The notes under the pieces are model-generated. The model saw nothing but the letters and a program-made list of their open reading frames with translations, ran no database searches and had not been told where the DNA came from. This document shows positions 1,006 through 63,441 of a stretch of 64,000 nt of DNA, piece after piece. A program made the translations under genes and the position numbers. Numbering within the stretch: the first letter of the stretch is position 1; each line of letters opens with the position of its first letter. Where the stretch lies: positions 960,001 to 1,024,000 of the forward strand of contig OY970176.1 of NCBI GenBank assembly GCA_963707955.1, read 5' to 3'. Source of the stretch: Candidatus Bathyarchaeota archaeon. GTDB taxonomy: Archaea > Thermoproteota > Bathyarchaeia > Bathyarchaeales > Bathycorpusculaceae.

Positions 1006-1075
1006 AAGTGTTATGATTCTGGCGTGCACGCTTGCTGTCTCCTTGTGCGTTTGGGTTCGCGCGCGCCAACTTCTT

Positions 1076-1282
1076 TTATTGTTTTCTTTGCCTTCCAACC
1101 GTTCTCAAGATTAGGTTAGCGACTAATGCCACTAATACATCAGCTATGATCCATTCTCCAAAGGAAAAAACACCTAAAATCCCTAGAATCATAAACAGCA
1201 GCAAAAACGCTATAGCGATTGCGCCAACAGCGAACTTTGTCTTGCGCACTCCACGAGATCCAGAACCGCTTAATGTACTCAC
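1076..1282 (-). CDS. small two-TM membrane protein
   Basis: 68-aa ORF with two hydrophobic segments and a basic tail. Confidence 0.6.
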   Translation of the reverse strand: MSTLSGSGSRGVRKTKFAVGAIAIAFLLLFMILGILGVFSFGEWIIADVLVALVANLILRTVGRQRKQ

Positions 1283-1482
1283 ATGAATTACCCTTTTTCG
1301 CCATACGATTAATAGCCTATAATCATTCTTTTCATAGAGGAATGCCCTTAAGCTTTAGCGTTTTGAGTTTGGGGATAAAACTTTACCCCCAACCCAACCC
1401 AAATGAACGAAGGACACAGAAACCCACGGTCAAGCTCACGTTCTCCTAAAAGTTTATTCGCTGGATTGGCCAGTAGTGTAAG

Positions 1483-1965
1483 GTGAGGGATATGAGAAAG
1501 AAGGCTGTTGTTTTGGTGACTGCCTGCGTCATAATAGCAGTCGCGGCCTTTTTCGCGTTCTACGCGTTCACCCCAACCCCACCGCAGCGGATAACAACGT
1601 TGGATGAAATCACAAGCGACCCTTCCGCGTGGGTGAACAGAACAGTAACAGTTGAAGGTGCCCTTAGCGGTCCATATCCACCTTTATCTGACCCGTTCGA
1701 ACCTTCGGTGAACTTTCTCTTTGAACTCAGTTCTGGCAATCAAACCGTCGGAATATCTTTGAACGCCAACCTGTGGAATGGCGGCGATTTCTGGAAACAA
1801 TGTAACTATGACCATGTGCAGACCTTCTCCGCGATGATTTACGGATTATTCAAAAAAGGTGAAACAAACTTCACGCTCGGTAGTCTTGAAGGAGGACCGC
1901 CAACAATCACAACCTTGGTCTTCTACTACATTGAGGCTCAAAGAATCCTTATAGAAAAAGAGTAG
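1483..1965 (+). CDS. membrane-anchored secreted protein, possible OB-fold
   Basis: N-terminal signal/TM; 'TLDEITSDPSAWVNRTVTVEG' resembles small extracytoplasmic OB-fold proteins; upstream AAAAGTTTATT. Confidence 0.6.
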   Translation: MRDMRKKAVVLVTACVIIAVAAFFAFYAFTPTPPQRITTLDEITSDPSAWVNRTVTVEGALSGPYPPLSDPFEPSVNFLFELSSGNQTVGISLNANLWNGGDFWKQCNYDHVQTFSAMIYGLFKKGETNFTLGSLEGGPPTITTLVFYYIEAQRILIEKE

Positions 1966-2203
1966 CAAGCGCGCTATTTTATTATTCAGTTACTGCAAAA
2001 TGGAGCTCGGCGGAGTTTATCCATCTTTCAAAAAATGGAAAATTAAATTGCTAATCTCTACATATCATTTAGGTATACGTTGCATGTAGCCTTGGCGGTT
2101 TAAATCATTAACCAAAAAAACCTGAGGAAAGCTAGGAACGCTACAATACGTCTAGGCAAAAGCCCAAAAAAAGGGAAACTTCTGTACGGAGTCTTTCTGA
2201 CTC

Positions 2204-3589
2204 TTAGGTATAAGTTGCATTATAGAATTTCAATATCGTTCCAATTGCTAGTTGTACGCCGCTCCAGATAAACCACATCGTAAATGAAGTAGCATTTTGT
2301 GGAATTTGTATCAATCCATGAGCGTCAGCATTTACCCACACACCGTTATTGAAGTTCGCAGCAAAGTATCCAGGTTGACCGAACCAAAGTATCGTACTGT
2401 TGTATGGTGTATATGTAGCTGAAATACCGAAGTTTGCAACTGCCGTATTGACATCCGCCATAGTAATAGCCCTGCTAGTAGTAACATCGTATATGTAACT
2501 CCAGTTAGAGGAGCTGGACTCGGTAGTTCCAAACGCATTCTCCAAAGCAACTATGTCTCCCATATTGATGGCGCCATCCGGATAGTTACTTATTCCATCA
2601 TACGTTCCTGAACCCACTACGTCTCCGTCCAAATCAATTTGTAGACAGGGAAATGTTGAATTCCATGGATATATGTCTTCCACTTTGAAATATGGTTCAA
2701 TTGTTCCATTTGGAACATAGCACCATCCTGAAGAACCTCCATATTCAGCGCATGCCTGCGTCTTCATAATAAAGTCCTGAGTAATGTATCTCCACGTCCA
2801 TGCAATGTAAGCTTCAAAATATGCGCCGTATCCGAGACTGTACGTAGCCGCCACATTGAAGTATCCTTCTGGTCGAGTCATTTCCGTTGTAAACATGTTA
2901 TTCCAACCTTCCCAATTGACATCATCATCTGTTTCATACATGCTCGTGTGGTCAATTAGATGTGTGCCTTGGTAACCAGTGAATGGATGGTATGAGTCAT
3001 TCACTTCAAATTCGCTAATTGCTGCACCACTAGAAAGATTGTATTGTTCGGCACCTACATTAGTAGGTTTACCATTGATATAATATGTCCAATATGAATA
3101 GTCTCCTTGTCGTGACGTTCTTAAAACCTCTAAACTGTAGCTTGTATTGAATGGAACAGGGCCTGTAACATAAGTGATAGGGCTAGTGTTATTCCAATTC
3201 AGCCACGTCTCATAAATTTGAGCATACCCACCAGTAGCGTTGTAAGCCATTCCTATCTCAACATAGTATGTCGCATTCTCTAAAGAGCTGTAGTCAATTA
3301 TTCCAACCCCTGACCAAAAGTCTCCATCCGAGTTAACCACTCTGTATATTGGCCCATATAATTGTTCTGCGTTTTCAACTCCTATGTGAGTGGTGATCGT
3401 AGAACTCCAATTTCCCCATCCATCAGGTAGAAAACCAATATTAGCATATGATGGAGCAAAAGATGAAAATAAAGGACCTGATTGAACCAATGTTAGTGGT
3501 TGAGCATTAGCAGCCTTGGGGAATATTGATATCGTTGTAAGGGCACTAAAGACAAGAGGAACTAGTATTAACAACATTCTAATTTTCAT
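2204..3589 (-). CDS. secreted protein with degenerate dockerin-like repeat pair
   Basis: Start re-set to ATG 3589 behind GGAGGTGA; signal peptide; DGAINMGDIVALENAFG and SRAITMADVNTAVANFG; visibly AT-rich. Confidence 0.7.
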   Translation of the reverse strand: MKIRMLLILVPLVFSALTTISIFPKAANAQPLTLVQSGPLFSSFAPSYANIGFLPDGWGNWSSTITTHIGVENAEQLYGPIYRVVNSDGDFWSGVGIIDYSSLENATYYVEIGMAYNATGGYAQIYETWLNWNNTSPITYVTGPVPFNTSYSLEVLRTSRQGDYSYWTYYINGKPTNVGAEQYNLSSGAAISEFEVNDSYHPFTGYQGTHLIDHTSMYETDDDVNWEGWNNMFTTEMTRPEGYFNVAATYSLGYGAYFEAYIAWTWRYITQDFIMKTQACAEYGGSSGWCYVPNGTIEPYFKVEDIYPWNSTFPCLQIDLDGDVVGSGTYDGISNYPDGAINMGDIVALENAFGTTESSSSNWSYIYDVTTSRAITMADVNTAVANFGISATYTPYNSTILWFGQPGYFAANFNNGVWVNADAHGLIQIPQNATSFTMWFIWSGVQLAIGTILKFYNATYT

Positions 3590-3652
3590 TTCCTCACCTC
3601 CTTTTAAACATTTAGAGATTTTCTGTTTGGAGTTTGGCACATAAATGGGGCA

Positions 3653-3779: not shown

Positions 3780-3798
3780 GTTAGTGAGGTTTTGAAAC

Positions 3799-4089
3799 AT
3801 GAAGCTTGAGCAGATAATCGCCTCTTCGTGCAGACAGAGGATGCTGCTCGCACTTGCCAAAGTTAGAAGAACACACGTGACCGAGCTGGTGCGAATGATC
3901 AATAGCACGTACAACGAGGTGAATCGGAACCTCGCGATCCTGGAGAAAGAGAAAATCATAAAGACGGAAAGGTTAGAGTACTTGAGAATCGTGGAATTGA
4001 ACGTAGAAAACCCGAAGACACTGGCACTCTTAAAGGCCCTTGAACTGCTCGACAGGCCGATTTTCAAGTCTGAAAACGCCAACGAGTAG
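3799..4089 (+). CDS. winged helix-turn-helix (ArsR-like) transcriptional regulator
   Basis: RQRMLLALAK...VTELVRMINSTYNEVNRNLAILEKEKII pattern. Confidence 0.75.
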   Translation: MKLEQIIASSCRQRMLLALAKVRRTHVTELVRMINSTYNEVNRNLAILEKEKIIKTERLEYLRIVELNVENPKTLALLKALELLDRPIFKSENANE

Positions 4090-4117
4090 CGCGCGCGGGT
4101 CTGTTCCGGTTGTGAAT

Positions 4118-5365
4118 TCATACATTAATGTTTATGGTGTATATGCACGCAACCCAGATGCCGCTTGGATGCGGCATCGTGGGGGAAATTATTACGCTAG
4201 AAGTGTCGGCTTCTAAGCGTCTTGGTGTTGTTACTTGGTATTCTCCGTCCAATCTTACCGTTACCGTCGTTTCGTTGAGAACGATGTGAAAGGTGTTCCA
4301 TTGGAATGGTGTCAACTGTGTTCTAACGGACGACACGTACCTTAGGTACTGGCCGTCTATTTTTTGCGATAATTCCAGAACTCCGTCGGTATGAAAAACG
4401 ACGTAGTAGTAGTTGCTTTCGTTCGTGTAATCGAAGACTATCCACGGTACATCCCAACTATACGTTCCTGCTATGATGGTTCTGATGTGCACGTCGAAGC
4501 TGAAGTCCCTGGAGGCGACAGCCATTTGTGTGCTAATTCTTCCTGTTTGAAACATGACCAGTATTAAGAGCAGCGCCACGCCTACGACTATCACTTCTTT
4601 CTTTCTGATTAAATGAAACGAATCCACACGTTTCTCACTGCGGGCTTTCAACAAGGGTCTCGCAATGTAGAGATCGATTGCTAACGCAGGTATTATCCAG
4701 AAAGGAATGAATATTTTATTTATCTGAATTGGGAACTCAAATAAGTAGTTCAACACGAACGACCCCATGAGTGATGCAACGAAAATCAAGAAAATAATCG
4801 TGGTCAACGATTTCTTAATCCCTAAAAATGATGAAACACTTTTTCCAGAATCGTTCCTTTTCCCAAGTCCAGCGAGAAGCTCTCCAGCAAAAGAGAAGAG
4901 GACAATGGCTAGTATGGCTAACAGTGCCGTCGCATTGAAGAGTCTCAGCGAACCGTATCCTAAAATGAAAATTAACACATACCTTGTTACGTGATGCATG
5001 GCATCAAAGGGGGCTTTCCCACTGCAAATGGGATAGATGGAGTAAACTATCAGAATCAAAACCCCAATGACTATTTCAAAAGGTGTAAGTACTATGAGAA
5101 GAGGAATCAACGATCCTAAAGCTATCGTTGAGTAGACTCTTCTTTTCTTTGAAGCATCCCTGTTTTCTGCGAACATCATTGAAAAAAGTTTCGACACCAC
5201 GACAAATACGAATACGAGAGGGCTTATCGCGAGTCTTGTCGAAATCAGGTATCCAAAGAGCACGGTCCAAAACACGTGTACGATTGATGACATGTAGGAG
5301 GAGAGCATCGTCCAAGGACTGAGTGAACGTGGTATGTCCACCTGGGATCTCTCCTCGCTTTTCAT
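4118..5365 (-). CDS. multi-TM protein (UbiA-like membrane region) with C-terminal beta-sandwich domain
   Basis: About 9 TM segments, YSIYP...KAPFD..HH; soluble tail with NYYYVVF, WNTFHIVL, TVRLDG. Confidence 0.55.
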   Translation of the reverse strand: MKSEERSQVDIPRSLSPWTMLSSYMSSIVHVFWTVLFGYLISTRLAISPLVFVFVVVSKLFSMMFAENRDASKKRRVYSTIALGSLIPLLIVLTPFEIVIGVLILIVYSIYPICSGKAPFDAMHHVTRYVLIFILGYGSLRLFNATALLAILAIVLFSFAGELLAGLGKRNDSGKSVSSFLGIKKSLTTIIFLIFVASLMGSFVLNYLFEFPIQINKIFIPFWIIPALAIDLYIARPLLKARSEKRVDSFHLIRKKEVIVVGVALLLILVMFQTGRISTQMAVASRDFSFDVHIRTIIAGTYSWDVPWIVFDYTNESNYYYVVFHTDGVLELSQKIDGQYLRYVSSVRTQLTPFQWNTFHIVLNETTVTVRLDGEYQVTTPRRLEADTSSVIISPTMPHPSGIWVACIYTININV

Positions 5366-5489
5366 CGTTTCACCTCACTCACTGCGGCTTTAGGAAGTTC
5401 TTCCATTCCTATTTTCCCTTGACAAACTATTGAATGTGACGCACGAACAGCATTTAACCTTGTCTAGAATACGCGCGCGTAAGGACTGA

Positions 5490-5942
5490 TTAGAACCGCT
5501 TTGGTTTTTCTCTGGTGTAGATTTCTATCACGTAGTTATCCGGGTCAGAGAATGACACAGCATAGTATCCTGGCTCGAATTCAGGATGCTCTTCGCATGG
5601 GAACAGGGCTTTGAACCCTTTCTTCTTCATCTCTTTCTCGACATCATAAACAGCTTCCTTGTCCTGAACGAGGATCGCCAAATGATCGGTCACGACGAAC
5701 TCTTCCCCAGTCGGAGCCTTTCGCCTAACCCTTGGTTCCCGCAACGCACTCACCCAAACCGAGAAATTCTGGTTAGAGAATCCAAACCCATCTTCAGTGT
5801 CCATGATAACCTTGAAGCCTAGCCCTGCCAGCAGAGCCTTGTAAAACTTCTTCGAACTGCCCAGGTTCGACACTTCGATTCCAACATGACCAACAACCGC
5901 TTGAGTTTGCTTATCTGAAGCCACAGCGTCACCCCACGACAC
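5490..5942 (-). CDS. VOC/glyoxalase family protein
   Basis: HVGIEVSNL..SKKFY...LG and FSDPDNYVIEI. Confidence 0.9.
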   Translation of the reverse strand: MSWGDAVASDKQTQAVVGHVGIEVSNLGSSKKFYKALLAGLGFKVIMDTEDGFGFSNQNFSVWVSALREPRVRRKAPTGEEFVVTDHLAILVQDKEAVYDVEKEMKKKGFKALFPCEEHPEFEPGYYAVSFSDPDNYVIEIYTREKPKRF

Positions 5943-19262: not shown

Positions 19263-22019
19263 TCACTTTGCCAGTCTTCTGGCAACCCATTTCCTGATTT
19301 CTTCCGCGAGGATCACGATGCATGCGAGAAGCGCAAGAAACGCCCAGTCGAGTAGGCCTAGACCAGTGGTGCCGAAGAGACTCTGCAGCAGTGGGATGTA
19401 GACTATGGCGGATATTATGGTTATCTGAGAGGCTATGCCGAGCCAGATCCACTTGTTACTCTTGAGACTGGTTTTGAGAATTGACACTTTGCTCGTTCTG
19501 CACGCTAGAACGTTGCCCACTTGAGCGATGACGATGCCGGCAAACGTCATGGTCGTACCTTTAGCGTACGCGCCACTTGTATAGAACGAGCTGCTAGGAG
19601 ATAACTGCATTCCAAGGTGCCATCCGCCTGCTTGCCATGCCATGAAGCAGCCGATCATTGCTCCGGCGGAGATTATTACGCCGATGTACAGTGATCGGAG
19701 GAACACTTTTGTGTTGAACAGTCGTTCTTTGACGCCTCGAGGTTGCTCCTGCATTATTCCTATCTCCGGCGGCTCTCGGCTTAAAGCCAGTGAGGGGATT
19801 ACGTCTATGCCCAAATCTATGGCCAAGATTTGAACAACAAGAAGAGGCAGAGGTATGTTTAACAGTGCGTAAAGCACGTAGGGAATCAGTTCTGCCCAGT
19901 TGTGCGCGAAGACGTAGACTATGAATTTTCTTAGGTTTTCGTAGATCGTGCGGCCGGATTCTATTGCTTTTACTATCGAGGCGAAGCTGTCGTCAAGTAG
20001 CACCATGTCAGCCGCCTCTCTTGCCACGTCCGTCCCTGATAGACCCATCGCGACTCCTATGTCTGCCTCTTTCAGGGAAGGAGCATCGTTTGCTCCGTCT
20101 CCGGTGACGGCTACGATTTCGCCGTGCTGTTTGAGAGCTTTGACTATGCGAAGTTTCTGTTCTGGTGACACCCGGCTGAAGATAATGTTTGCCTTCTTGG
20201 CTTCATCGTAGATCTGCTGGTTGCTGAGGGCGTCCACGTCGACGCCTCGAATGATGTGGCTGTTCTCCGGTTCTACTATGCCTACTTCTTCGGCTATGGC
20301 TTGTGCTGTCGGACCATAGTCTCCTGTTATGATCGTGACCTTTATGCCTGCTTGCCTAGACAGTTTCACTGCTTCAGGAACTTCTGGGCGAGGTGGGTCT
20401 TTCATCGCTGCCAGTCCAACGAGGATCATGTCCCTCTCGACATCATCAACCTCAGAAAGCTGGTCTTTCGGCAGTTCCGAGTAGGCAGCGGCTAGGATGC
20501 GAAGGCCCTCGCTTGCGAATTCATGGATTTTTTCTTCAACGAATGACAAGTGTTCCTTGGTCAGTGTCTCTATTGTGTCGCCGACTAGTATTCTGTTGCA
20601 TATGGAGAGTATGCTTCGGGCGCCACCCTTCGTGTAGACTGAGACCTCGTGGTCATGGTTGTGGATCGTTGTCATCCTTTTGCGTTTGGAGTCAAAAGGG
20701 ATTACGCGGACAGTGGGTTTTTCAACGAGCATGCTCTTGACGCTCAGCCCATACTTTAGGGCAGTAACAAGCAAGGCGCCGTCCGTTGGATCCCCTACGA
20801 TACTCCATGACCTGTTCTTGTCCGACGGCGGTTCAACTTTAGCGCTGTTGCACAGCGCCGAGATCTCAAGAAGTTTCTCAATCCCGTAGGAGTCTTCCTT
20901 CGTTAATGGTGGGTTCTCAGAAGTGAAATCGCCCGTCGGGTCGTATCCGACGCCTGAAACTTCGATTACCTTGCCGTTAACCCAGATCTTCGTGACGGTC
21001 ATCTCGCCTCTTGTGATTGTCCCTGTTTTGTCTGTGCATATCATCGTCACGCTGCCTAGGGTCTGGACGGCAGAGAGCCGTTTGACCAGCACGTTCTCCT
21101 TCACCATTTTCAGCACGTTTATGGCTAGGGCACTTGATACTGTTACCTGCAAGCCTTCGGGGACCAGTGCCACCATTACGCCTATCATGAACAGTATGCT
21201 GGCGAGCCAGCCTGTGTGAAGTAAGATTTTGCTGACTAGGAAGAAGATGGCCCCTACTGTTATAGCTGAGATGAAGTCGTACTTGGCCGTGTAGGCTATT
21301 TCTTTCTGCAGAGGACTCTGCTCTTCGCTTATTTCCTGAGTTAAGCCTGCGATCTGTCCGAACTTTGTGCTCATGCCCGTCTTGACGACGACAGCTTTTG
21401 CGCGGCCCGTGGCGACGCTCGTGCTCATGAAGACAAAGTTTGGCACGTCCAAGTACGTGGCGTCAACAGTCTCCACTGGTTTGTCTGTTCTTGGCTGAGG
21501 CTCAGACTCGCCGGTCAAAGGGACGTTGTTTGTCCACAGCTCGTAGGCCTCGATCAGCCTAGCATCCGCCGGTACACGGTCGCCTTCTTCTAGGATTATG
21601 AGGTCTCCTGGAACAAGGTCCCTTACCACTATTTTCTTGAGCTCTCCGTCGCGGACGACCTTGGCGTACTCGGGCATCCACCTCTTCAGCGCTTCCATGG
21701 CCTTTTCTGCTCGCCACTCTTGGAAGAGACTGAAGACCATGTTGACAAGAACGACTGCCAGTATGATGATGCTCAGTTGCCACAAGCCTCCGAAGGTTGC
21801 CAGCAAGCTTGCGAAGAGCAGCAGCACGGAGAACAGGTCTTTGAGGAGCGTGAGAAACTTGTAAGCCATGGACACGTGTTTTTTCTCGATAAGCGTGTTG
21901 GTTCCATACTTGGCGAGGCGTTTGTCGGCCTCGTCAGTGGTTAACCCCGTGGGTGAGGTTTCCATCAAATCGAAAACTTCTTTGACCGGCAGAGCCGCAG
22001 CGTCCTCCAACAAAAACAC
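19263..22019 (-). CDS. type II cation-transporting P-type ATPase
   Basis: TGES, PEGL, DKTGT, TGDGAND. Confidence 0.95.
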   Translation of the reverse strand: MFLLEDAAALPVKEVFDLMETSPTGLTTDEADKRLAKYGTNTLIEKKHVSMAYKFLTLLKDLFSVLLLFASLLATFGGLWQLSIIILAVVLVNMVFSLFQEWRAEKAMEALKRWMPEYAKVVRDGELKKIVVRDLVPGDLIILEEGDRVPADARLIEAYELWTNNVPLTGESEPQPRTDKPVETVDATYLDVPNFVFMSTSVATGRAKAVVVKTGMSTKFGQIAGLTQEISEEQSPLQKEIAYTAKYDFISAITVGAIFFLVSKILLHTGWLASILFMIGVMVALVPEGLQVTVSSALAINVLKMVKENVLVKRLSAVQTLGSVTMICTDKTGTITRGEMTVTKIWVNGKVIEVSGVGYDPTGDFTSENPPLTKEDSYGIEKLLEISALCNSAKVEPPSDKNRSWSIVGDPTDGALLVTALKYGLSVKSMLVEKPTVRVIPFDSKRKRMTTIHNHDHEVSVYTKGGARSILSICNRILVGDTIETLTKEHLSFVEEKIHEFASEGLRILAAAYSELPKDQLSEVDDVERDMILVGLAAMKDPPRPEVPEAVKLSRQAGIKVTIITGDYGPTAQAIAEEVGIVEPENSHIIRGVDVDALSNQQIYDEAKKANIIFSRVSPEQKLRIVKALKQHGEIVAVTGDGANDAPSLKEADIGVAMGLSGTDVAREAADMVLLDDSFASIVKAIESGRTIYENLRKFIVYVFAHNWAELIPYVLYALLNIPLPLLVVQILAIDLGIDVIPSLALSREPPEIGIMQEQPRGVKERLFNTKVFLRSLYIGVIISAGAMIGCFMAWQAGGWHLGMQLSPSSSFYTSGAYAKGTTMTFAGIVIAQVGNVLACRTSKVSILKTSLKSNKWIWLGIASQITIISAIVYIPLLQSLFGTTGLGLLDWAFLALLACIVILAEEIRKWVARRLAK

Positions 22020-29008: not shown

Positions 29009-29020
29009 CGCGCGCTAGGT

Positions 29021-38349: not shown

Positions 38350-38753
38350 GCGCGCGCGTTTGCCCTGCCAAAGATGAAGAAGGCGATGCCGGAGTAAATC
38401 GGGTAGAACCATTCGACTGCAATCCAGTAACCTTTCGACAGAGTTATTTGCAGGTTTAAGACAAGGGCAACATCATCTAGGCTGATTAATGCGAGAGCGA
38501 AAAGATACGAAAGCAACACCAGCATGGTCACCACGTTGAATCTTAAGCCGCCCTTTACTTTGCCATAGAGCAAGAAAACCACAATTGAGGCAAGCGCGTA
38601 CAGGACATCAAGGGGCTTCCAGAAGGCATGTCCAAAAATCACATCTAGATTTCCAACGTAGCCTACTAAATGTGCATCTCCAAAAGTGAGTAAAATTAGG
38701 AGTGCACCGAAAGCAAGTGCTGTAATTTCGCTTTTGAAACCCATGTTTTCCAT
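38313..38753 (-). CDS. four-TM membrane protein; last codons run through a (CG)n tract into the neighbour's antisense strand
   Basis: Hydrophobic segments; ends ...FFIFGRANARAQIDFGRGIKSQ. Confidence 0.7.
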   Translation of the reverse strand: MENMGFKSEITALAFGALLILLTFGDAHLVGYVGNLDVIFGHAFWKPLDVLYALASIVVFLLYGKVKGGLRFNVVTMLVLLSYLFALALISLDDVALVLNLQITLSKGYWIAVEWFYPIYSGIAFFIFGRANARAQIDFGRGIKSQ

Positions 38754-39106
38754 AACCTGAGCGTAAAAACAGCAGAAATACTGTTAAGTCTTTTGTGTTG
38801 ATCAGCGCGCGCGGCATCTTCTTGCCCAGTCATGATTACGCCTCATACTTCGGAGTTCTCGGCGCAGTATCACTTCTGTCAATGCCGCTGTATCCCCTGT
38901 GCGCTAAGTATCTGCGTAAGAACGCGAATAATCAATCGGAGCATGAAACGACAGTGCGCGCTGAAGCTTCAGGCTTTTGATCGTTGAAGCTTTTGTCCTC
39001 TCTTCGTCACTTCATTGCAGACGTATGCAACATTGAGGCAGTTTCAATCCCACGTTGATAATATTATGGTTTTACCGTCCTGACCGTAGAAAGCATCTTT
39101 GATTCC

Positions 39107-40015: not shown

Positions 40016-40530
40016 TTAAAGACTTGCTACGAGGAGACGGACTTAGCATGTTATGTACCCAAAGCGCGCGCTGTATCATTTTTTTTGCACGGTCTGTAAT
40101 TTCGGCGCATGCGCTCAAATCAAGAGAATAAACGAATGAAAGGAACTATGAGGCACGCGTGAAGAGAATGCCATGCACCACGTAAGAGAGAAAGCTAGCG
40201 CGCTCGCAGGGACTTGAAACCCGCGGGGTGAATTTGTACTGTTTCCCTTTTTTTCTGTCACAGTACACATGCCTTTATGTTTATCAACATCGTCATTCAA
40301 CCCCCTCCTCTTTTTCTACGCCAGCGCAGTAGCCACCTAGCGAACACGCGCCAGAACCCTGTGAAATCACGTTTACCGACAATCTTATCGAAGGCGACTT
40401 TCAGTTCATTCAGCCATTACAAAAGTGTAGCGCGCGCTGGGTTTGGGGACGGGCAGTTCAGGTTTTTTCTCTATTATTTCTTGACCTTAATCGACACGCA
40501 CCAATTTACCAGTTAGAGCTCAGTTTTGAC

Positions 40531-41961: not shown

Positions 41962-42027
41962 ACAATCATGGAAAGAACTTATATATATAATATTTGTTGA
42001 ATATATCTCAAGCTTGGAGAAGCGTTA

Positions 42028-45000: not shown

Positions 45001-46053
45001 AACACGACGACGGCTTGGAGTGCATCAGGCGTGCAGGGAACCGCACACCACAAATGGACGTCGCCGGGAACGTACAACATCACGGTCTACGTGTATGACC
45101 CCTACAGAGCGTGCAGCAGCAACACCACCACGGTCACCATGACCCAAAGAGGCGGCGGCTGTCCATACGTTTACGATTGGAACGGCTCGGCATACGTGAA
45201 GGACAACAACATCTTGCCAGCGTCCGAGAATGGTAACGGCACCGACACCAAAGACTACTACCTGCTTCAGCAACCCCTCGTGCCCGTTTTCAGCACGAAG
45301 CAAAAGTCTGTGTACTCGCTGCAGATCGGCGAGTTCGAAAACGACACAGACTACATCGACCAGGCTCAACTCATAGCCGTAGACCATTCGCAGGGCACTG
45401 GCATAGCAGTGACCCAGCAGGGCCAAATCATCGCGTACAAGAACCTGGCCTCTCCCATAACGTGCATTGACAACAACGACAACAGCGAGCTGGCCGAGAT
45501 AAGCAGCATGAACGGAAACGTCTCCGACCCCTCCACGTACTATCAAGGCAACAAAGGCGACTGGCTACTCTTAGACTTCGGCACGGTCACAGGCCCCCAC
45601 GCCAACCTCATCCTAAGAGACGACATGAAATGCATCGCGGACAACTGCATAGACGTGCAGGTGCCTAACGCTACAGGCGGATGGCAAACGATTGACGTGC
45701 TGAACCCCAGAGACTTCTGGAGCATGGAAGCAGTCAACATGACAGCCTACCTGCCCGCGAACGGCGACTTCATCGTCAGACTGTTGTGGACGCAAACCCA
45801 CAGGCTCGACTACGTGGGACTCGACACTTCACCGCCCGCTCCAGTACAAGTAAGCTCAGCACCGCCAACACTGGCCATCCACTCAACTTTAGGCAACGTG
45901 ACTTCAAAGCTGCTGTACGACGACGAACAGTGCGTGGAACTAGTCAACGGCCAGCAGATAACAATATGGTTCACCCTGCCCAGCCAAGCAAAAGGCACGA
46001 CAAGAAGCTTCATCCTCTACACAGACGGCTACTACTACACGATAACACCATAG
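42028..46053 (+). CDS. 1341-aa secreted multidomain protein (alpha/beta-hydrolase-like core, two PKD-like domains)
   Basis: Signal peptide; GFSGGG nucleophile elbow; two DP.G..V.Y.FNWGDGT...H.W...G.YNITV units; GGGCPYVYDWNG domain. Confidence 0.8.
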   Translation: MKRLICAVLVTVFFISSIPAFTLAAGSEAQAVQFRTVWENPYTLTTYHPDNEVNSTFYTFPQVIWNGSQYVNYILNSSDMSAGIGSVYIKVCPDHTVFYDPHQKEEEIESESWNVECYNTSSLEWETDCPISNSVCYLVNSSGIYFDRTTILRSGATLDEQYWLRIGSELKISVTLHPVQATEYSLIWQLGGVSGTKARWLTTTQNITAQLVNDPSCSSVQFASGNESKSLVDWSDAFIFNESTEKYTTCFQQLEFQKGVSDGQCQARISFGDFMLAPEEPLTLDPYVATFNSTGASSGFIEQYGLSYPPPLPNGGTLVDTGDSLYVGQNYNQGNGGYMIDRSYLSFDTSSIPAMAYNMSATLQLEAGLLSSLVNFTVQVWGGNQPVCSGNLTIMDGTQPIYNDDLNADSWGSGRVQVAAWNTANYQSGVYVNLTIPPNQINKVDSTEFELNSSREGTPPGGDEFVQFYGDNSTGNGPELEVSYCLDTVTINGETWFYRNASTSKVVIVLFGAYWYEDHLEIRSIDWLGDLSYNDRPEKDIGKIMFIDALIASGFSVYTPSCSSINPVDAPSQAIGYVSNYKSDSTWVQDLTMDLMYNASYTQVYLFGFSGGGIVVGNEIQKDYAFRFSAAVMNCAVVDWSIATGQIYHTAGTSSKARVATSFVENVNDTLSTLPPTIVYNQMLSYWGNETVQKEWHDWMGGHGDFFTPNCTCLDPPYENDSVAVIGWFNAYHPPNTPFIATGSQTIVANTGYSYSSGTVDPNGQNVSYQFNWGDGTSNTTGYYPSGTNVTCTHAWSNQGSYNITVLAQDSQNSSFWSPPLTVNVYSASITGCNVYYSDASQNLTTFDMDAQQDYNVTVNFTWHAARTYDVSLLVAVLNPNGVWAWYSYPGVYFDVLDPNNYTEPLQIMKWIPSAGTGTLMITLTSNSSYCAVPWNEAVKIVSSNNPPNSPSFTYGTWSGYNGTIYNYGANATDPDGDNIQYVFNWGDGTANTTTAWSASGVQGTAHHKWTSPGTYNITVYVYDPYRACSSNTTTVTMTQRGGGCPYVYDWNGSAYVKDNNILPASENGNGTDTKDYYLLQQPLVPVFSTKQKSVYSLQIGEFENDTDYIDQAQLIAVDHSQGTGIAVTQQGQIIAYKNLASPITCIDNNDNSELAEISSMNGNVSDPSTYYQGNKGDWLLLDFGTVTGPHANLILRDDMKCIADNCIDVQVPNATGGWQTIDVLNPRDFWSMEAVNMTAYLPANGDFIVRLLWTQTHRLDYVGLDTSPPAPVQVSSAPPTLAIHSTLGNVTSKLLYDDEQCVELVNGQQITIWFTLPSQAKGTTRSFILYTDGYYYTITP

Positions 46054-46203
46054 AAAGCAAAACCTAGAAACCCAAACCACATTCCTTTTTTTGTCCAGTG
46101 TACATGCCTTTACGTCCATGGCTTTGTCCTTATCATACAGCGTGCGCGGCTGGGTTTTCGCGCGCGCGCTCGTGTCGAAAAATAGCAAATCTTGGGGTTC
46201 CAT

Positions 46204-46505
46204 CAAATCCTGAACGGAGCAGTTTTCTCATAAACTGTAGAAGCTACACGTCCGAGATTTTTTCGCTGAAGGGAACTGCTCCTTTTTTCCTCTGCACGGT
46301 TTTTCTGCTTTTGTTTAGTTTAGTTCGTAAATTCCGTGAGCTATCATAAGGAAGCCGATTACGACGCCTATTATCCCCAAAGGCAGCTCATACAACCCAA
46401 TGCCCACCAGAACAGCCCCTACAAGAATAGGTACACCAACTCTGAGGCCTCCCCTTCTCAGCAGAAGACCCATGAAGTCGTATATCTCGGACTCCTCTTC
46501 ACTCA
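46204..46505 (-). pseudogene. frameshifted small membrane protein
   Basis: LRVGVPILVGAVLVGIGLYELP then, after a shift in a G run, IIGVVIGFLMIAHGIYEL. Confidence 0.4.
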
Positions 46506-46598
46506 GTCTTCAACACCTTTTCATTTTCTATCAAAATCCCATTAAAATCCCTATCGAGAGTATGCTCAGAACGATCGTACTCTTTTGTCATTCATTCA

Positions 46599-47073
46599 TT
46601 AAGACATCTTCTTGACATATTCGAGAACCTTTGGGATTCTGCTCGTCCCAGCTACAGTCAGTGCGGGAATGGCTCCCATGAGTACCATGAGCGGCCCAAC
46701 CAGTCCCGCAGGCGGTTCGTGGCTGAAGAAAAGGTTTGGAGATGCAAACTCGAAGGCGAAGAACACGACGTTCATTACAAGTATGGCTTCAGCCATGAGC
46801 CCACACCAAACAAGAGCAAATCGAACTTGGAATCTTCTGGTCCTTAAATGGCTGTAGAATAACTCAGACAAAACTGCCTGGAATGAGAATAATAGTGAGA
46901 GAAACAGTCATGAACACGCGTACAGCGGGAAAGAATGCCATCTGTCGATTCACTCCGAACGCGTCCCCGATCAGAGGCCACCCGAACAATATCAAGAAAC
47001 CGACAGCGAAAACATAGACTAACAGGAGATAATTGTAGAGGTCTGACCATCGGTAGCCGTAGTCTTTGCTCAT
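46599..47073 (-). pseudogene. multi-TM membrane protein split by a frameshift near 46870
   Basis: ORFs 46864-47073 and 46599-46871 overlap at a T run and read as one four-TM protein. Confidence 0.5.
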
Positions 47074-47298
47074 AAAGTCAACCTAACCCGTATACGCCAG
47101 CCCTAACGCCAGCAGACCCAAACATATCGTAGCAATACCGAAGTCAGGGGTCAGGATCCAGCACGTAAACCCAAGCGCCATACTTATCTCGCTGATAATG
47201 TCAGTTATGAAGCTATTATACGTTTGCAGCATGTGTCGTGCCAGCGTCGTTGAATAAGCGCGCAGATACTAGAGAACAGTACAAATTCGCAATGTTTA

Positions 47299-47321
47299 TG
47301 GCGGGCCCGCCGGGATTTGAA
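47299..47321 (-). other. isolated tRNA 3' fragment (T-loop to CCA), att-like
   Basis: Reverse complement TTCAAATCCCGGCGGGCCCGCCA. Confidence 0.75.
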
Positions 47322-47330
47322 TACGAATTA

Positions 47331-61169: not shown

Positions 61170-61640
61170 CGTTAGTTAGCCTCGAATGAGCAAATAACAC
61201 TTTTGGGAAAACTCCGCTGCCTTGAGGTGACCTTTGCTCCGGTGCGATGCATACTAAAACCCTTCATACTCAGACGCTTAACATACCTTCATGCACATTT
61301 TCAGCGCGCGCGCTAATGCGCTCAACCCTTACTCTGGTCCTTCCGATTTCATCTGCTCCGTCACTGAAGCCAAGCTGCAGACGTGCCTGACGGTAAAATC
61401 AGCTTTTGAATGAACAGGCACCACTGTGTCTCTTTTTGCTCCCATTATCCATATAACTTGCGCAGTGCTACGGCCCTCATCAATTTTGACATTGGAGCAA
61501 GAGATTCACCGCTTGATGCCCGATGAAAATAATGGTTGAATGATGCTTCATTAGTAAAAAGCCTTGAGAATGGTAAGAGTCTCGAAGAGCTCGCTACTTT
61601 TATTTGGATCGAGCCATCCACCATTCACATGTGACCTGAG

Positions 61641-62126
61641 ATGAGCAAGAGCAACCAGCGATACGGAATGTGTGGTGTTTACTGCGGTCAGTGTCCGAAT
61701 GGCAATGGAAGAGTGAGGATGATGGCTGGGGAGTTGAAGAGGCTTGTTGACACGACTGGCTACGACTGGGTTAAGAACGTAGTTAAGTCATTCAGCTTTG
61801 ATGAGTTCAGAAAGGGTCTAGAGTGGTTCTCTGATTCGCAGTGTCCCATGTGTCTGAATGGTGGAGGCGCGCATTGCGAAAACAGAAAATGCGCTTCCAA
61901 GAATGGCCTTCAAAGCTGCCTCCTATGTGGGGACTATCTGACGTGCAAGAACACCGAGTATCAGAGAGACGCGTACCCCTTCGTCGTCGAGAATTACAAT
62001 CGCGTCAAACAAGTGGGCTTCGAGAAGCACCTTGAAGAGGAAGACGAAAGAGCAAGAGCAGGCGTGAACTTGATGGGTCATCTGGAACGAAGACGCTGCA
62101 AGGTCGTCAAACTAGAGGACAGATAA
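61641..62126 (+). CDS. DUF3795-like Cys-rich protein
   Basis: CGVYCGQC, C..C, KC...KGL.SC..C. Confidence 0.75.
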   Translation: MSKSNQRYGMCGVYCGQCPNGNGRVRMMAGELKRLVDTTGYDWVKNVVKSFSFDEFRKGLEWFSDSQCPMCLNGGGAHCENRKCASKNGLQSCLLCGDYLTCKNTEYQRDAYPFVVENYNRVKQVGFEKHLEEEDERARAGVNLMGHLERRRCKVVKLEDR

Positions 62127-62272
62127 CGCGCACAAAAAGCTCGCCGCTTGAATTTTTCTGATATCGCGCTGTCGTTCTATTTCTCCGGGTCTCAACCTGT
62201 TTGGGTTCAAAAGCTTAATACTCTGATTCTGACGGATCACTCATCGTCAAACAACCTAGGCGGTCTGTTGAA

Positions 62273-63091
62273 TTGAGTTTGAAGAAGAGGGCTAAGTCAG
62301 GTCTGACACCACTGATCGAGCTCATCTCCCTCAAGAAAAGGAAAGCGCTGATCACTGGTTCAGGAGCAGGCATCGGCAGGGCCATAGCCTACAGGTTTGC
62401 CGAAGCAGGTGCAGGTTTGGAGCTTGTTGACATCAACGAAGAAAGCTTGAGCACGGTGAAACGAGAGCTCGAGCAGTTCAACGTTGAGATCAATGTTCAC
62501 AGGGTCAATCTAGCTAAGAAAGAAGAGATAGATGCTTTGTGGAAGAGGCTGGATGGAAGAGAGCCCGACATTCTGGTAAATAACGCTGGCATATATCCTA
62601 GCAAGTCCTTCCTCGACGTGGACGAAGCTTTTCTCAGGAAAGTCATGGAAATCAACCTGAACTCTGTTTTCTGGCTGTGCCAGCACATGATAAGGACCAG
62701 GTTGAAGAAGGGCGGAGTGATCATAAACATGGGTTCAATCGAAGCCATAATGCCTCTGAAACAAGACTTATGCCACTATGACATCAGCAAAGCAGGGATC
62801 ATGGTTCTTTCAAGAGCTCTGGCCAGCGAGTACGGTAGACACGGTTTCAGGATAAACGTGCTCGTTCCAGGCGGAACATGGACACAGGGAACAAAGAGCC
62901 TAGCGAAGGAAGCCGTGAAACTCAAGTTCAACGTCATCAAATCAGGCATAGAGTACAATATGAGGACTCCCCTGGGCAGGTTGGCCAAGCCAGATGAGAT
63001 CGCACGCATGGCACTAGTTCTCGCAAGCGACCTGTCAAGTTACGTGAACGGAACACTAATAGCCGTCGACGGAGGCTTTCTCTCAGCATAG
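62273..63091 (+). CDS. short-chain dehydrogenase/reductase
   Basis: TGSGAGIG, NNAG, YDISK. Confidence 0.95.
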   Translation: MSLKKRAKSGLTPLIELISLKKRKALITGSGAGIGRAIAYRFAEAGAGLELVDINEESLSTVKRELEQFNVEINVHRVNLAKKEEIDALWKRLDGREPDILVNNAGIYPSKSFLDVDEAFLRKVMEINLNSVFWLCQHMIRTRLKKGGVIINMGSIEAIMPLKQDLCHYDISKAGIMVLSRALASEYGRHGFRINVLVPGGTWTQGTKSLAKEAVKLKFNVIKSGIEYNMRTPLGRLAKPDEIARMALVLASDLSSYVNGTLIAVDGGFLSA

Positions 63092-63157
63092 CACCCCTAG
63101 ATTAGCGCAGTGGGGCTGCCCGTCACGCTACCCAGCAGGTTCACGTTTGCTTCTTCC

Positions 63158-63359
63158 GCGCGCTAGCGTGTTCCTAAATTCTTTCGGGAAGCAGCTTGCG
63201 TTGCTCATTTTGCTCTTCAACAATATTTGGAGGCTCAAAAATGACGACGGGGAGGGTGTGAGCACGAGAGCACCCAGCTCGAACCGTGAAAGTAACCATC
63301 GCCCATCGGAAAACGATGGGCCTCCTTCTTTAACGGAATTCAGGAACAAGCATGCGCGC
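63158..63359. mobile_element. 202-bp MITE-like element with 24-bp imperfect TIRs ending in GCGCGC
   Basis: Left arm GCGCGCTAGCGTGTTCCTAAATTC versus reverse complement of right arm GCGCGCATGCTTGTTCCTGAATTC (20/24); internal hairpin GCCCATCG-gaaaa-CGATGGGC. Confidence 0.55.
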
Positions 63360-63441
63360 TACCTAATTCTCAACCTACGTGAGAAGCAAGCTTTAAGAAC
63401 TTTAATAGCTGGTTTGCTAAGTTGTATGAAGGTCTGTTCGA

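What the first reader, a model, noticed from the sequence alone, without database searches (positions are those of the whole stretch)
1058..63361. TAGCGCGC/(CG)n palindromes mark the borders of accessory genes: candidate gene-cassette system
Seen: alternating CG runs of 8 nt or more start at 1058, 4089, 5472, 29008, 30319, 37229, 38350, 38805, 40064, 40430, 46159 and 61304. Shorter versions lie at 1969, 31974, 37299, 39115, 40198, 47258, 62127, 63158 and 63354. About a dozen carry the extended core TAGCGCGC/GCGCGCTA. All long runs are intergenic or at a gene end, and many runs overlap or closely follow a stop codon (1965, 4089, 29008, 38349, 62126). I saw no long run inside or between the housekeeping genes at 10-28 and 47.4-60 kb. 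At 25% C and 25% G about 2 such 8-mers are expected in 64 kb, mostly in coding DNA. The runs divide accessory regions into one- or two-gene units that include their promoters (1969-4097, 4089-5479, 29008-30326, 38350-38813, 39115-40071, 40430-46169). Inference: they are crossover or target sites of an integron-like or transposase-driven cassette acquisition mechanism. Alternatives are terminator, protein-binding or Z-DNA elements. No recombinase for it is visible in this window.
Basis: partly seen in the sequence, partly recalled or inferred. Interest (0 to 1): 0.88.

Follow-up and report, generated by a model that had tools for sequence, protein, structure and literature searches.

The report
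GC palindrome marking DNA joints
A short GCGCGCGC palindrome, found hundreds of times between genes in one genus of Bathyarchaeia, sits where gene-sized pieces of DNA have been lost, gained or copied, so it looks like a joint of genome rearrangement and not an integron site.

Summary
All 12 long CG runs lie at the stated coordinates. The 2.35-Mb genome has 455 runs of 8-11 nt, with consensus tA-GCGCGCGC-Ta. About 85% are intergenic, roughly 130 times commoner there than a typical G/C-only 8-mer. The motif is enriched in all 11 genomes of the genus searched and in none of the 20 others.

It is not a terminator, an attC site or part of a longer repeat. It marks joints:
- 27 of 209 homology-block ends against a 94%-identical relative lie within 3 nt of a run (2.6 expected).
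- 23 of 148 ends of intragenomic duplications lie within 7 nt (2.9 expected).
- It is 6-9 times denser in strain-variable DNA.
- 16 of 41 simple indels carry it in the empty allele.

Outgroups show both directions. Four deletions left a new (CG)n scar. Five insertions went into an existing run, two of them elements with IS5-type inverted ends that split it 8 to 6+6.

A Ku-LigD end-joining operon lies just upstream of the window and is nearly genus-specific.

Best reading: a scar and landing pad of illegitimate end joining and transposition. The chemistry that makes it is unknown. No integron integrase was found.

The parts
1058..1066 (.). CGCGCGCGC, stand-alone long run between ORFs 235..1005 and 1483..1965
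4089..4097 (.). TA-GCGCGCGCG, long run 21 nt from the stop of 4118..5365(-)
5472..5479 (.). CGCGCGCG, long run 11 nt from the stop of 5490..5942(-)
29008..29015 (.). TA-GCGCGCGC-TA overlapping the TAG stop of the M24 peptidase gene. Homology with both close relatives ends here. The relatives hold a single run (G001) or a decayed one (G007) at the empty site.
29016..32020 (.). 3-kb segment (dockerin/CARDB protein and radical-SAM/SPASM protein) present here and absent in G001 and G007. Its left end is the 29008 run. Its right end is ...GGACGC, with a 7-nt run (31974-31980) 40 nt inside.
30319..30326 (.). TA-GCGCGCGC-T between the two divergent genes inside the strain-specific 3-kb segment
37229..37236 (.). 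TA-GCGCGCGC. Homology block with G001 ends at its first base, and G001 has about 420 extra nt inserted exactly before its copy of the run.
37229..37304 (.). 76-nt piece between two runs holding two TTTGCATATAC repeats. It is a relative of a roughly 200-nt MITE-like family that ends in GCGCGC and carries a triple AAAGCATATACA promoter-like repeat.
37237..38349 (.). Segment with a diphthamide-synthase-like gene (37621..38349), absent in G007 (L002) and bounded by the runs at 37229 and 38350
38350..38358 (.). GCGCGCGCG, 1 nt after the stop of 37621..38349. Homology with G007 starts at this run.
38805..38813 (.). GCGCGCGCG. Homology with G007 ends 1 nt from this run. The unit 38350-38813 is present in G007 in another context.
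39121..40053 (.). 933-nt unit (ORF 39107..40015, no Pfam hit) with a 93% identical second copy at genome 2297527-2298458. Both copies have a run on both sides, 0-10 nt from the end of homology.
40064..40071 (.). A-GCGCGCGC-T, right border of the duplicated unit
40430..40437 (.). TA-GCGCGCGC-T, 94 nt from the stop of the NosD-like gene 40531..41961(-)
46159..46169 (.). CGCGCGCGCGC, one of only two 11-nt runs in the genome, 106 nt after the PKD-domain gene
37316..47324 (.). 10-kb island absent in G001. It ends at tRNA-Gly (47331-47409) and holds 6 of the 12 long runs of the window.
61304..61313 (.). GCGCGCGCGC-TA between divergent genes
63157..63359 (.). MITE of the TGTTCCTAAATT family: CGCGCGC-TAGCGTGTTCCTAAATTC...GAATTCAGGAACAAGCAT-GCGCGC.
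1..233 (+). 3' end of the ligase plus phosphoesterase gene of a PrimPol-Ku-ligase/PE (LigD-type) end-joining operon. The operon lies at genome 957178-960233, which is window -2822 to 233.

Best explanation
The tA-GCGCGCGC-Ta palindrome is a joint of illegitimate DNA rearrangement that is specific to this genus of Bathyarchaeia. It is not a gene-expression signal and not an integron site.

Shown:
- It appears as a complete unit of 8-10 nt, with 0-12 extra nt, at the junction left when a gene-sized segment is deleted.
- It lies at the ends of inserted and duplicated segments.
- It is the insertion target of IS5-family elements and their MITEs, which split an 8-mer into 6+6, a duplication of about 4 bp.
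- Once present it decays by point mutation and is not conserved.

Inferred:
- The joints are made by end joining of broken DNA. This genus, unlike nearly all its relatives, carries a Ku / LigD-PrimPol / ligase-phosphoesterase operon.
- The self-complementary GC tract serves, or is built, as the bridge between two ends.
- Later breaks recur at the same places, through transposase action on the motif or through its own fragility. New DNA is then captured next to old joints, and accessory regions come to look like arrays of one- or two-gene cassettes separated by the motif.

Not known: the chemistry that produces this particular sequence.
For: - **Abundance and placement.** The genome has 455 runs of 8 nt or more. 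Of these, 232 of 267 (8 nt), 108 of 130 (9 nt) and 46 of 56 (10 nt) are fully intergenic. The core occurs 396 times in intergenic DNA against a median of 3 for G/C-only 8-mers. Nothing is conserved beyond 2 flanking nt.
- **Genus-specific.** AGCGCGCGCT occurs 7-114 times in 11 of 11 genomes of the genus, against 0-4 for the control word. It occurs 0-1 times in 20 of 20 genomes of other genera.
- **Breakpoints.** 27 of 209 homology-block ends against G001 lie within 3 nt of a long run. Random intergenic placement predicts 2.55 (p = 1.8e-19). For contig C1 alone, counting either genome, the figure is 19 of 99. 23 of 148 ends of intragenomic repeats lie within 7 nt, against 2.9 expected.
- **Variable DNA.** 56 of 73 sites in a 375-kb span lie in DNA not shared with G001, 9 lie at block edges and 8 inside shared DNA. 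Density per kb of intergenic DNA is 1.54 against 0.26. The mirror count in G001 is 60, 6 and 13 of 79.
- **Indels.** In 16 of 41 simple indels the empty allele carries a run of 6 nt or more at the junction. The random intergenic expectation is 6%.
- **Birth at deletions.** This holds for ev3, ev14 and ev20. It also holds for ev26, where G001, G003 and G009 keep the gene in synteny while G000 and G007 share one scar, T-GCGCGC(G/T)-AGC. The tree is ((G000,G001),G007), supported by 99 of 128 1-kb blocks.
- **Target use.** A MITE in G001 splits the 8-mer that G000 has at that site (G007 has a decayed 8-nt version) into 6+6. A 1750-nt element with inverted ends in G000 sits in an 8-mer that is intact in G001 and G007. 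All 13 strict run-bounded inverted-repeat elements use 6-7-nt runs, and none of the 455 long runs is used.
- **Transposase.** DUF772 plus DDE_Tnp_1. Copies in G003 and G009 read as a single unbroken ORF; both ends flanked by CG runs in G003, while the G009 contig ends in the element's right end.
- **Duplicated units.** A 585-nt unit that is 100% identical at 715099 and 1421017 is bounded by the motif in both copies, and the flanks are unrelated. Other pairs share only GC or CGC with the run in one copy.
- **Decay.** Only 5 of 13 sites inside shared blocks are intact in the relative. Internal one-mismatch transition variants occur 30-36 times each in intergenic DNA, against a median of 3.
- **End joining.** Ku was found in G000 and in 7 of 10 genomes of the genus. 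The three misses are 65-89% complete. Outside the genus it was found in 1 of 20. The operon is PrimPol-Ku-ligase/PE.
Against: - No step of the joining chemistry was observed. No known end-joining system is reported to add a fixed (CG)4-5 tract; this is recalled, and searches found nothing of the kind.
- Ku is also present in G016, outside the genus, which has no excess of the motif. Genus-level co-occurrence is a single phylogenetic event and proves little.
- 21 of 41 simple indels have no run at all, and 182 of 209 block ends are not at a long run. The motif therefore marks a minority of joints.
- Polarity rests on three close genomes. 29 of 128 blocks disagree with the tree. In ev26 the three-genome pattern alone would have given the wrong direction, so the five cases called insertions into a run are less secure.
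- The 100% identical unit that is bounded by the motif in both copies fits a cut or crossover within the motif better than filler synthesis does.
- Breakpoints were defined by BLAST block ends and by my own thresholds.
- Only 770 kb of G001 and 330 kb of G007 were compared.
Confidence: 0.5

Rival explanations
1. The motif arises only as a transposon footprint. On this reading, IS5-family elements and MITEs with GCGC(GC) at their borders insert and later excise. Rejoining of the two duplicated target copies (GCGC + GCGC) by end joining leaves GCGCGCGC. The link with rearrangements exists because rearrangements happened between transposon copies that have since left.
For: MITE and IS copies are bordered by GCGCGC on both sides, mostly with TA outside, which mirrors the consensus TA-GCGCGCGC-TA. 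In 6 of 6 polymorphic MITE sites the empty allele holds a CG run or a decayed one and never a plain site. The length arithmetic fits, since 6+6 minus 4 gives 8. Lengths stop at 11 nt. An AEP polymerase that joins 3' overhangs with 4 bp or more of homology is known to promote IS excision in E. coli (abstract of PMC9943667). Ku-LigD is present.
Against: In the two MITE or IS polymorphisms with an outgroup, the run is older than the element. The four polarised deletions have no run, no GCGC and no inverted end at either boundary of the ancestral filled allele. G004 and G008 carry 39 and 56 copies of AGCGCGCGCT, yet the inverted-end word is at control level and this transposase was not found with my query. 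Flanking run lengths differ between copies of one IS type (7+7 in G003, 8+4 in G000), as expected for a variable target and not for a fixed terminus.
Confidence: 0.15
2. A dedicated site-specific recombinase or nuclease recognises GCGCGCGC and moves motif-bounded cassettes by cutting and rejoining within the motif. This is integron-like or restriction-ligation-like.
For: A 585-nt unit that is 100% identical is bounded by the motif in both copies. The window unit 39121-40053 is bounded on both sides in both copies. Two of 41 indels show one run in the empty allele and runs on both sides of the filled one. G000 has nine tyrosine recombinase genes.
Against: No integron integrase was found. The site has no arms and nothing is conserved beyond 2 nt. 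Spacers of 0-14 nt lie between the run and the end of homology. In 11 of the 16 indels with a run in the empty allele, the filled allele has no run at either end. Runs are created at deletions whose ancestral boundaries lack them. No recombinase was linked to the motif by position. I did not test phyletic co-occurrence of any recombinase.
Confidence: 0.1
3. The motif is a functional structural or protein-binding element of intergenic DNA, for example a Z-DNA-prone tract, a nucleoid-protein site or an insulator. Breakpoints fall there only because such tracts are fragile or because intergenic DNA tolerates breaks.
For: The placement is strictly intergenic, in all three kinds of intergenic region (188 tandem, 112 convergent, 102 divergent of the 402 placed). 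The sequence is palindromic with a narrow length range. Alternating CG is the classical Z-DNA former (recalled).
Against: Sites are poorly conserved (5 of 13) and are 6-9 times rarer in conserved DNA than in variable DNA. There is no fixed distance to gene starts or stops. The excess at breakpoints is measured against random intergenic positions. New copies arise in one step at deletions.
Confidence: 0.1
4. A mutational drive of the HIP1 type: biased mismatch repair linked to a cytosine methyltransferase converts near-matches into GCGCGCGC.
For: It is the most over-represented palindromic octamer of the genome, as HIP1 is in cyanobacteria (recalled; the listing only shows that HIP1 papers exist).
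Against: No C5-methyltransferase domain was found in G000, and only 2 of the 10 other genus genomes have one. Near-matches are enriched and not depleted. The motif is almost confined to intergenic DNA. Copies appear as whole units at indel junctions.
Confidence: 0.03
5. The motif is a transcription terminator or an RNA 3'-end signal.
For: Several runs overlap or closely follow stop codons (29008, 38350, 1969). Density is highest in convergent intergenic regions (1.29 per kb against 0.77-0.80).
Against: There is no T-tract: T5 within 20 nt occurs at 5.9% and 4.0% of sites, against 3.8% and 3.6% at random intergenic positions. 102 of the 402 placed sites lie between divergent genes. An 8-10-nt palindrome cannot fold into a hairpin on its own. 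The median distance to a flanking stop is 133 nt.
Confidence: 0.02

Closest known systems
dRS3 repeats and NIME arrays of Neisseria (passages of PMC1797815 read)
   Same: Both are short repeats with inverted symmetry, present in hundreds of intergenic copies, clustered in arrays between variable pieces, and dynamic between strains. Both are used as the integration site of a mobile element through its transposase or recombinase. The authors of that paper proposed that the repeats promote exchange of neighbouring genes.
   Different: dRS3 is 20 bp with a variable centre and has an unrelated sequence, in a naturally transformable bacterium. The pieces between copies are 50-150-bp RS repeats and not genes. 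Creation at deletion junctions has not been described (passages read only). No NHEJ link is described.
HIP1 (GCGATCGC) and other highly iterated palindromes of cyanobacteria
   Same: Both are an octamer palindrome that is by far the most over-represented word of the genome and is lineage-specific.
   Different: HIP1 occurs inside genes as well and is tied to methyltransferases (recalled; only listings were seen). Here 396 copies are intergenic against 54 coding. No C5-methyltransferase was found in G000. Copies mark indel junctions.
Integron attC sites and gene cassettes
   Same: Short symmetric sites separate one-gene units in accessory DNA. Some empty sites keep one copy.
   Different: There is no IntI, no attC architecture and no single array next to an integrase. 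Units lie in both orientations across the genome, and junctions are imprecise.
Transposon target duplications and excision footprints; IS-excision enhancer (AEP polymerase) of E. coli O157 (abstract of PMC9943667)
   Same: Short constant sequences are left or used at transposon sites. An AEP-family polymerase joins ends through 4 bp or more of homology. Deletions are associated with IS elements.
   Different: Here most copies stand alone, and runs arise at deletions with no transposon end in the ancestral allele. The AEP enzyme is part of a Ku-LigD operon and is not an IEE-type helicase fusion.
REP/BIME elements and RAYT transposases of proteobacteria
   Same: Both are dispersed intergenic palindromes that are lineage-specific.
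   Different: REPs are 20-40-nt imperfect hairpins, often in pairs, and are linked to a Y1 transposase (recalled). This motif is 8-10 nt and cannot fold alone. I did not search for a Y1 transposase.

Membership tests
Integron (IntI + attI + attC cassettes) | Integron-type tyrosine integrase | tested here: not met
   TIGR02249 in the whole genome scores 29.5 bits at best against a cut-off of 265. Nine ordinary Phage_integrase-domain genes are present.
Integron (IntI + attI + attC cassettes) | attC sites: imperfect inverted repeats of tens of nt with conserved outer boxes | tested here: not met
   Only T at +1 (71%) and A at +2 (41%) carry information outside the run. No 7-mer is enriched in the 40-nt flanks of the 455 long runs.
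Integron (IntI + attI + attC cassettes) | Precise insertion and excision leaving a site on each side of a cassette and one at the empty site | tested here: not met
   Only 2 of the 16 indels with a run in the empty allele have runs at both ends of the filled allele, and 11 have none.
Highly iterated palindrome of the HIP1 type | Octamer palindrome far above expectation | tested here: met
   464 copies against a median of 13. It is the top palindromic 8-mer.
Highly iterated palindrome of the HIP1 type | Spread through coding and non-coding DNA; cognate cytosine methyltransferase (features recalled) | tested here: not met
   396 copies are intergenic against 54 coding. PF00145 gives 0 matches in G000.
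Intrinsic or archaeal oligo-T terminator | T-tract at or after the element, placed after genes | tested here: not met
   The frequency of T5 is close to that at random intergenic positions. 102 of the 402 placed sites lie in divergent regions.
IS5-family insertion sequence with derived MITEs (applies to the elements that use the motif, not to the motif) | DDE_Tnp_1 transposase with the DUF772 N-terminal domain | tested here: met
   Pfam hits on both G000 copies. Both are split into two ORFs in G000. Uninterrupted ORFs of 329-349 aa occur in G003, G009 and G006.
IS5-family insertion sequence with derived MITEs (applies to the elements that use the motif, not to the motif) | Terminal inverted repeats and a short target duplication | tested here: met
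   Inverted ends ATGCNTGTTCCTAAATT and CAGCTTGTTGCAAAATT. One polymorphic site shows 8 nt becoming 6+6. Other sites give 4-6 nt.
Bacterial-type NHEJ (Ku + LigD) | Ku, LigD primase-polymerase, ATP-dependent ligase and 3'-phosphoesterase domains in one locus | tested here: met
   PF21686, PF02735, PF01068 with PF04679, and PF13298 lie in three adjacent genes.
Bacterial-type NHEJ (Ku + LigD) | End-joining activity, and that it makes these joints | not testable with these tools
   Only co-occurrence is available: Ku in 8 of 11 genus genomes against 1 of 20 others.
REP/RAYT | Hairpin-forming repeat of 20-40 nt with a Y1 transposase | not tested
   The length of 8-10 nt is against it. I ran no search for PF01797.
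DNA uptake sequence | Over-represented word enriched in core DNA, with biased uptake | tested here: not met
   The motif is 6-9 times denser in variable DNA than in shared DNA. Uptake itself is not testable.

The most novel reading that the evidence does not exclude
The genus's Ku / LigD-PrimPol / ligase machinery, or a partner of it, builds or recruits a self-complementary (CG)4-5 bridge when it seals two unrelated DNA ends. This leaves a sequence-specific repair scar. The scars then act as preferred break and landing sites for IS5-type transposases and for captured DNA. Repeated rounds assemble accessory genes into cassette-like arrays without any site-specific recombinase. It would be the first repair scar with a defined sequence in a prokaryote and a new route to modular genome architecture in archaea.
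Probability: 0.25. Interest if true: 0.9.

Novelty: new variant of a known kind. Interest (0 to 1): 0.72.

Why it matters
Bathyarchaeia are among the most abundant archaea in anoxic sediments and peat (abstracts listed), and how their genomes gain and lose genes is largely unknown. Here a single 8-nt word marks a sizeable share of the places where closely related genomes differ. That share is 13% of block ends and 39% of simple indels.

The word can arise in one step at a deletion, it attracts transposons, and it co-occurs with an end-joining operon that is rare in archaea. If the link to end joining is real, three things follow:
- Past breaks and joins can be read directly from sequence.
- The proposed chemistry can be tested in vitro with three proteins.
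- There is a recombinase-free explanation for cassette-like accessory regions.

If the link is not real, the motif is still a useful marker for variable DNA and for transposon target choice in this genus.

Tried and rejected
- **Rfam and tRNA scans.** The Rfam scan of the window found only tRNA-Gly, and ARAGORN found the same tRNA.
- **Longer repeat.** No flank conservation and no enriched k-mers were found around long runs, so the motif is not part of a larger repeat.
- **Fixed distance to genes.** None was found.
- **Terminator.** There is no T-tract.
- **Sequencing runs.** No RNA holder is listed. The four DNA runs are kept as contigs of the same strain. They show no joint at any run, and their loose ends at 39121 and 40045 belong to the second copy of the duplicated unit. 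Contigs cannot show rare excision products, so this says nothing either way.
- **C5-methyltransferase.** Absent in G000.
- **Cas1.** Four hits, two with internal stops and two short fragments, none linked to runs by me.
- **Integron integrase.** None.
- **Relocated cassettes.** Inserts missing in G000 have only distant paralogues (64-80% identity) elsewhere, not moved copies.
- **First transposon idea.** I first supposed a TA-targeting element with GCGCGC termini whose footprint is the motif. It predicted plain TA empty sites, and 0 of 6 polymorphic sites show one, so I demoted it to a rival.
- **The dispersed repeat of about 200 nt.** Only 2 of 21 copies have a run nearby, so it is a separate element.
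- **Polarity left undecided.** For ev10 the outgroup intergenic DNA could not be aligned. For ev41 only one flank was found. For ev40 G007 has a different, larger gap. For ev34 I did not view the 68-nt junction in G007.
- **Literature.** The searches 'GCGCGCGC' + archaea, Bathyarchaeia genomes, highly iterated palindrome and LigD/IS excision gave no description of this motif. Supplements were closed and not consulted, and tables of repeats there could bear on the novelty claim.
- **Not done.** I made no structure or complex predictions and no homology searches in the large protein libraries, because no single protein was the question. I also did not fetch whole-genome alignments of all genus members, search for a Y1 transposase, or profile recombinases by phyletic pattern.

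Full report
**Observation.** The window (48.2% G+C) holds 29 maximal alternating C/G runs of 6 nt or more. No such run lies between 5480 and 29007 or between 46170 and 61303. Eleven of the 12 lie between ORFs. The twelfth, 38350, begins 1 nt after a stop codon. The stated short site at 62127 is not a run of 6 nt or more.

**Genome.** The window is genome 960001-1024000 of a single 2,346,764-bp contig. Relatives found with a window protein are titled Candidatus Bathyarchaeia MAGs. Window genes include a diphthamide-synthase-like protein and CARDB, PKD and NosD surface proteins.

**Genome-wide picture.**
- Run-length counts fall as expected from 4 to 7 nt (7871, 1774, 510, 186). They then rise to 267, 130 and 56 for 8, 9 and 10 nt, stop at 11 nt (2 runs), and no run is longer.
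- GCGCGCGC occurs 464 times, against a median of 13 for the 256 G/C-only 8-mers. It is the commonest palindromic 8-mer.
- With my own crude gene calls (2225 genes, 80.5% coding), 19% of 4-nt runs are fully intergenic, against 87%, 83% and 82% of the 8-, 9- and 10-nt runs.
- In intergenic DNA the core occurs 396 times, against a median of 3.
- Of the 402 runs I could place, 188 lie in tandem, 112 in convergent and 102 in divergent intergenic regions, with no preferred distance to starts or stops.
- Outside the run only the next two bases carry information: T at 71%, then A at 41%. This gives tA-GCGCGCGC-Ta. No 7-mer is enriched in the 40-nt flanks of long runs.
- T-tracts are no commoner than at random intergenic positions.
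- The motif is therefore a stand-alone word. It is not part of a longer repeat and not a terminator.

**Taxonomic range.** AGCGCGCGCT occurs 114 times in this genome and 7-92 times in the ten other genomes of the genus, against 0-4 for the control word. It occurs 0-1 times in each of the 20 genomes from other genera of the family and order.

**Breakpoints in the window.** The close relatives are G001 (about 94% identity) and G007 (about 92%). Their homology blocks, as loci L001 and L002, end at 29015 and 29012, at 37229, and at 38352 and 38806. Those positions are the runs at 29008, 37229, 38350 and 38805. The other four long runs in the covered stretch lie inside DNA that both relatives lack.
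- The 3-kb segment 29016-32020 is absent from both relatives. G001 has one 9-nt run at the empty site and G007 has a decayed one.
- The unit 38350-38813 is present in G007 next to different DNA.
- Other block ends in the window (19245, 22332, 32020, 32800, 36017, 47325) are not at a long run.

**Breakpoints at scale.** I fetched 770 kb of G001 and 330 kb of G007.
- Of 209 ends of blocks of 400 bp or more at 85% identity or more, 27 lie within 3 nt of a long run in G000. Random intergenic placement predicts 2.55 (p = 1.8e-19). For contig C1 alone, counting either genome, the figure is 19 of 99.
- In a 375-kb span, 56 of 73 long runs lie in DNA not shared with G001, 9 lie at block edges and 8 inside shared DNA. 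Density is 1.54 against 0.26 per kb of intergenic DNA.
- Seen from G001, the counts are 60, 6 and 13 of 79. Only 5 of the 13 shared sites are intact in G000.
- One-mismatch variants with an internal transition occur 30-36 times each in intergenic DNA, against a median of 3. Copies therefore arise perfect and then decay.

**Duplications within the genome.** A self-comparison gave 74 repeated segments of 300 bp or more. Of their 148 ends, 23 lie within 7 nt of a long run, against 2.9 expected.
- A 585-nt unit is 100% identical at 715099 and 1421017. It is bounded by the motif on both sides in both copies, and the flanks are unrelated.
- The window unit 39121-40053 has a 93% identical copy at 2297527-2298458. 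Both copies have runs on both sides, 0-10 nt from the end of homology.
- In other pairs only one copy ends at a run, and the other continues into its own context, sharing only GC or CGC with the run.
- The units encode ordinary proteins by their sequences, not transposases. I did not run family searches on them.

**Simple indels.** Among 41 indels where one allele has a gap of 40 nt or less and the other has 150 nt or more, 16 have a run of 6 nt or more in the empty allele. The random intergenic expectation is 6%.
- Of these 16, the filled allele has no run at either end in 11, a run at one end in 3, and runs at both ends in 2.
- Four further indels have a run only in the filled allele, and 21 have none.

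**Polarity.** The three close genomes relate as ((G000,G001),G007). Mean identities are 93.6%, 92.0% and 92.3%, and 99 of 128 1-kb blocks support this tree.
- Four events are deletions that created a run:
  - ev3: G001 has CGCGCGCGCG where G000 and G007 share an insert with the same boundaries.
  - ev14: G000 has CGCGCGCGC where G001 and G007 have 991 nt, and three more distant genomes have another gene.
  - ev20: G001 has A-GCGCGCGC-T where G000 and G007 have about 300 nt.
  - ev26: G001, G003 and G009 keep a 1.4-kb gene in synteny, while G000 and G007 share the scar T-GCGCGC(G/T)-AGC.
  - In these cases the ancestral boundaries show no run.
- Five events read as insertions at an existing run:
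  - A MITE in G001.
  - A 1750-nt element with inverted ends in G000.
  - Three pieces without inverted ends, in which the run is lost.
  - These five depend on the three-genome tree alone. ev26 shows that this pattern can mislead.

**Transposons.**
- Two MITE-like families end in GCGCGC. One has inverted ends of the type (A/T)(T/A)GC.TGTTCCTAAATT. A search allowing up to 3 mismatches found 169 hits and 35 pairs. One copy is window 63157-63359.
- The other family carries a triple AAAGCATATACA repeat.
- All 13 strict run-bounded inverted-repeat elements use 6-7-nt runs, and none of the 455 long runs is used. This fits an 8-mer split by a duplication of about 4 bp.
- The matching transposase has DUF772 and DDE_Tnp_1 domains. 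It is split into two ORFs in both G000 copies. It reads as a single unbroken ORF in G003, G009 and G006.
- The inverted-end word is enriched only in G000, G001, G007 and G003, whereas the motif is enriched in all genus genomes. The transposon is therefore a user of the motif and not its only source.

**End joining.** Directly upstream of the window lie genes for a LigD primase-polymerase, Ku, and a ligase fused to a 3'-phosphoesterase. The last gene ends at window 233. Ku was found in G000 and in 7 of the 10 other genus genomes, and the three misses are 65-89% complete. Outside the genus it was found in 1 of 20 genomes, G016, which has no excess of the motif.

**Reading.**
- Shown: the motif marks a substantial minority of rearrangement joints. 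It can arise in one step at a deletion, it is a transposon target, and it is not conserved.
- Inferred: end joining makes the joints, and the self-complementary GC tract is the bridge.
- Unknown: how this exact sequence is produced. The perfectly motif-bounded duplicate also leaves room for a cut within the motif.
- The integron reading fails on the integrase, on the site structure and on the imprecise junctions.
- The closest known system in how it works is the dRS3/NIME repeat of Neisseria (passages read).
- An AEP polymerase that joins ends with 4 bp or more of homology and promotes IS excision is a precedent for the enzyme side (abstract).
- I found no description of this motif in searches.

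Noticed in passing
window 22332-22545 and 9769-9969 (reverse): A dispersed repeat of about 200 nt, starting ACGCTACATCCCTGTATTCGCGTTTTG. A 25-nt seed finds 21 copies in this genome. Further copies occur in G001, G007 and G010. Only 2 of the 21 have a CG run nearby. One copy (genome 2331196) starts just after a triple TATA-like repeat, so it may be a small RNA gene family or another MITE.
   Followed up: partly
window 37229-37304; genome 564580, 669437, 735036, 1730289 and others: A MITE-like element of about 200 nt, bounded by GCGCGC-TGGCTTGTCCCTAAATTCGC and its inverse. It carries three tandem AAAGCATATACA units that look like stacked archaeal promoter boxes. It may be a mobile promoter.
   Followed up: partly
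window 19246-22331: A 3.1-kb segment with a 918-aa ORF (19263..22019, minus strand) is absent from G001 and G007. Those genomes have the promoter-like repeat element there instead. The boundaries are not at a long CG run.
   Followed up: no
window 34840-35660: An IS6-type (DDE_Tnp_IS240) transposase is split into two overlapping frames. Contigs of all four public runs lack one letter at 35144, so the frameshift may be an assembly error in the window or a real difference.
   Followed up: no
window 33006-34184: A fusion of an N6/N4 DNA methyltransferase with an Mrr-like restriction nuclease domain lies in a segment that G001 and G007 replace with other DNA.
   Followed up: no
window 47331-47409: tRNA-Gly(TCC) forms the right border of a 10-kb island absent in G001. 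Two other indels against G001 also end at tRNA-like sequences (events 7 and 28), which suggests classical tRNA-targeted integration alongside the motif joints.
   Followed up: no
genome 847225-848073, 853339-854286, 296898-297554, 550490-551551: Four of the nine tyrosine recombinases share a C-terminal tail of the type ...EA.KLIE.G(F/Y).YVTTIEGIQLFKKRK. This looks like a family expanded in this genome.
   Followed up: no
genome 2258379-2259146, 862528-862974, 227778-228074, 2026633-2026785: Four Cas1-domain hits, two with internal stops and two short fragments. One fragment lies at a 10-kb indel boundary against G001. They may be decayed CRISPR or casposon remnants.
   Followed up: no
genome 534320-534772: A second, stand-alone LigD-type phosphoesterase-like ORF (151 aa, HYDLRLE motif) lies inside a 2.2-kb piece bounded by a MITE-type end.
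   Followed up: no
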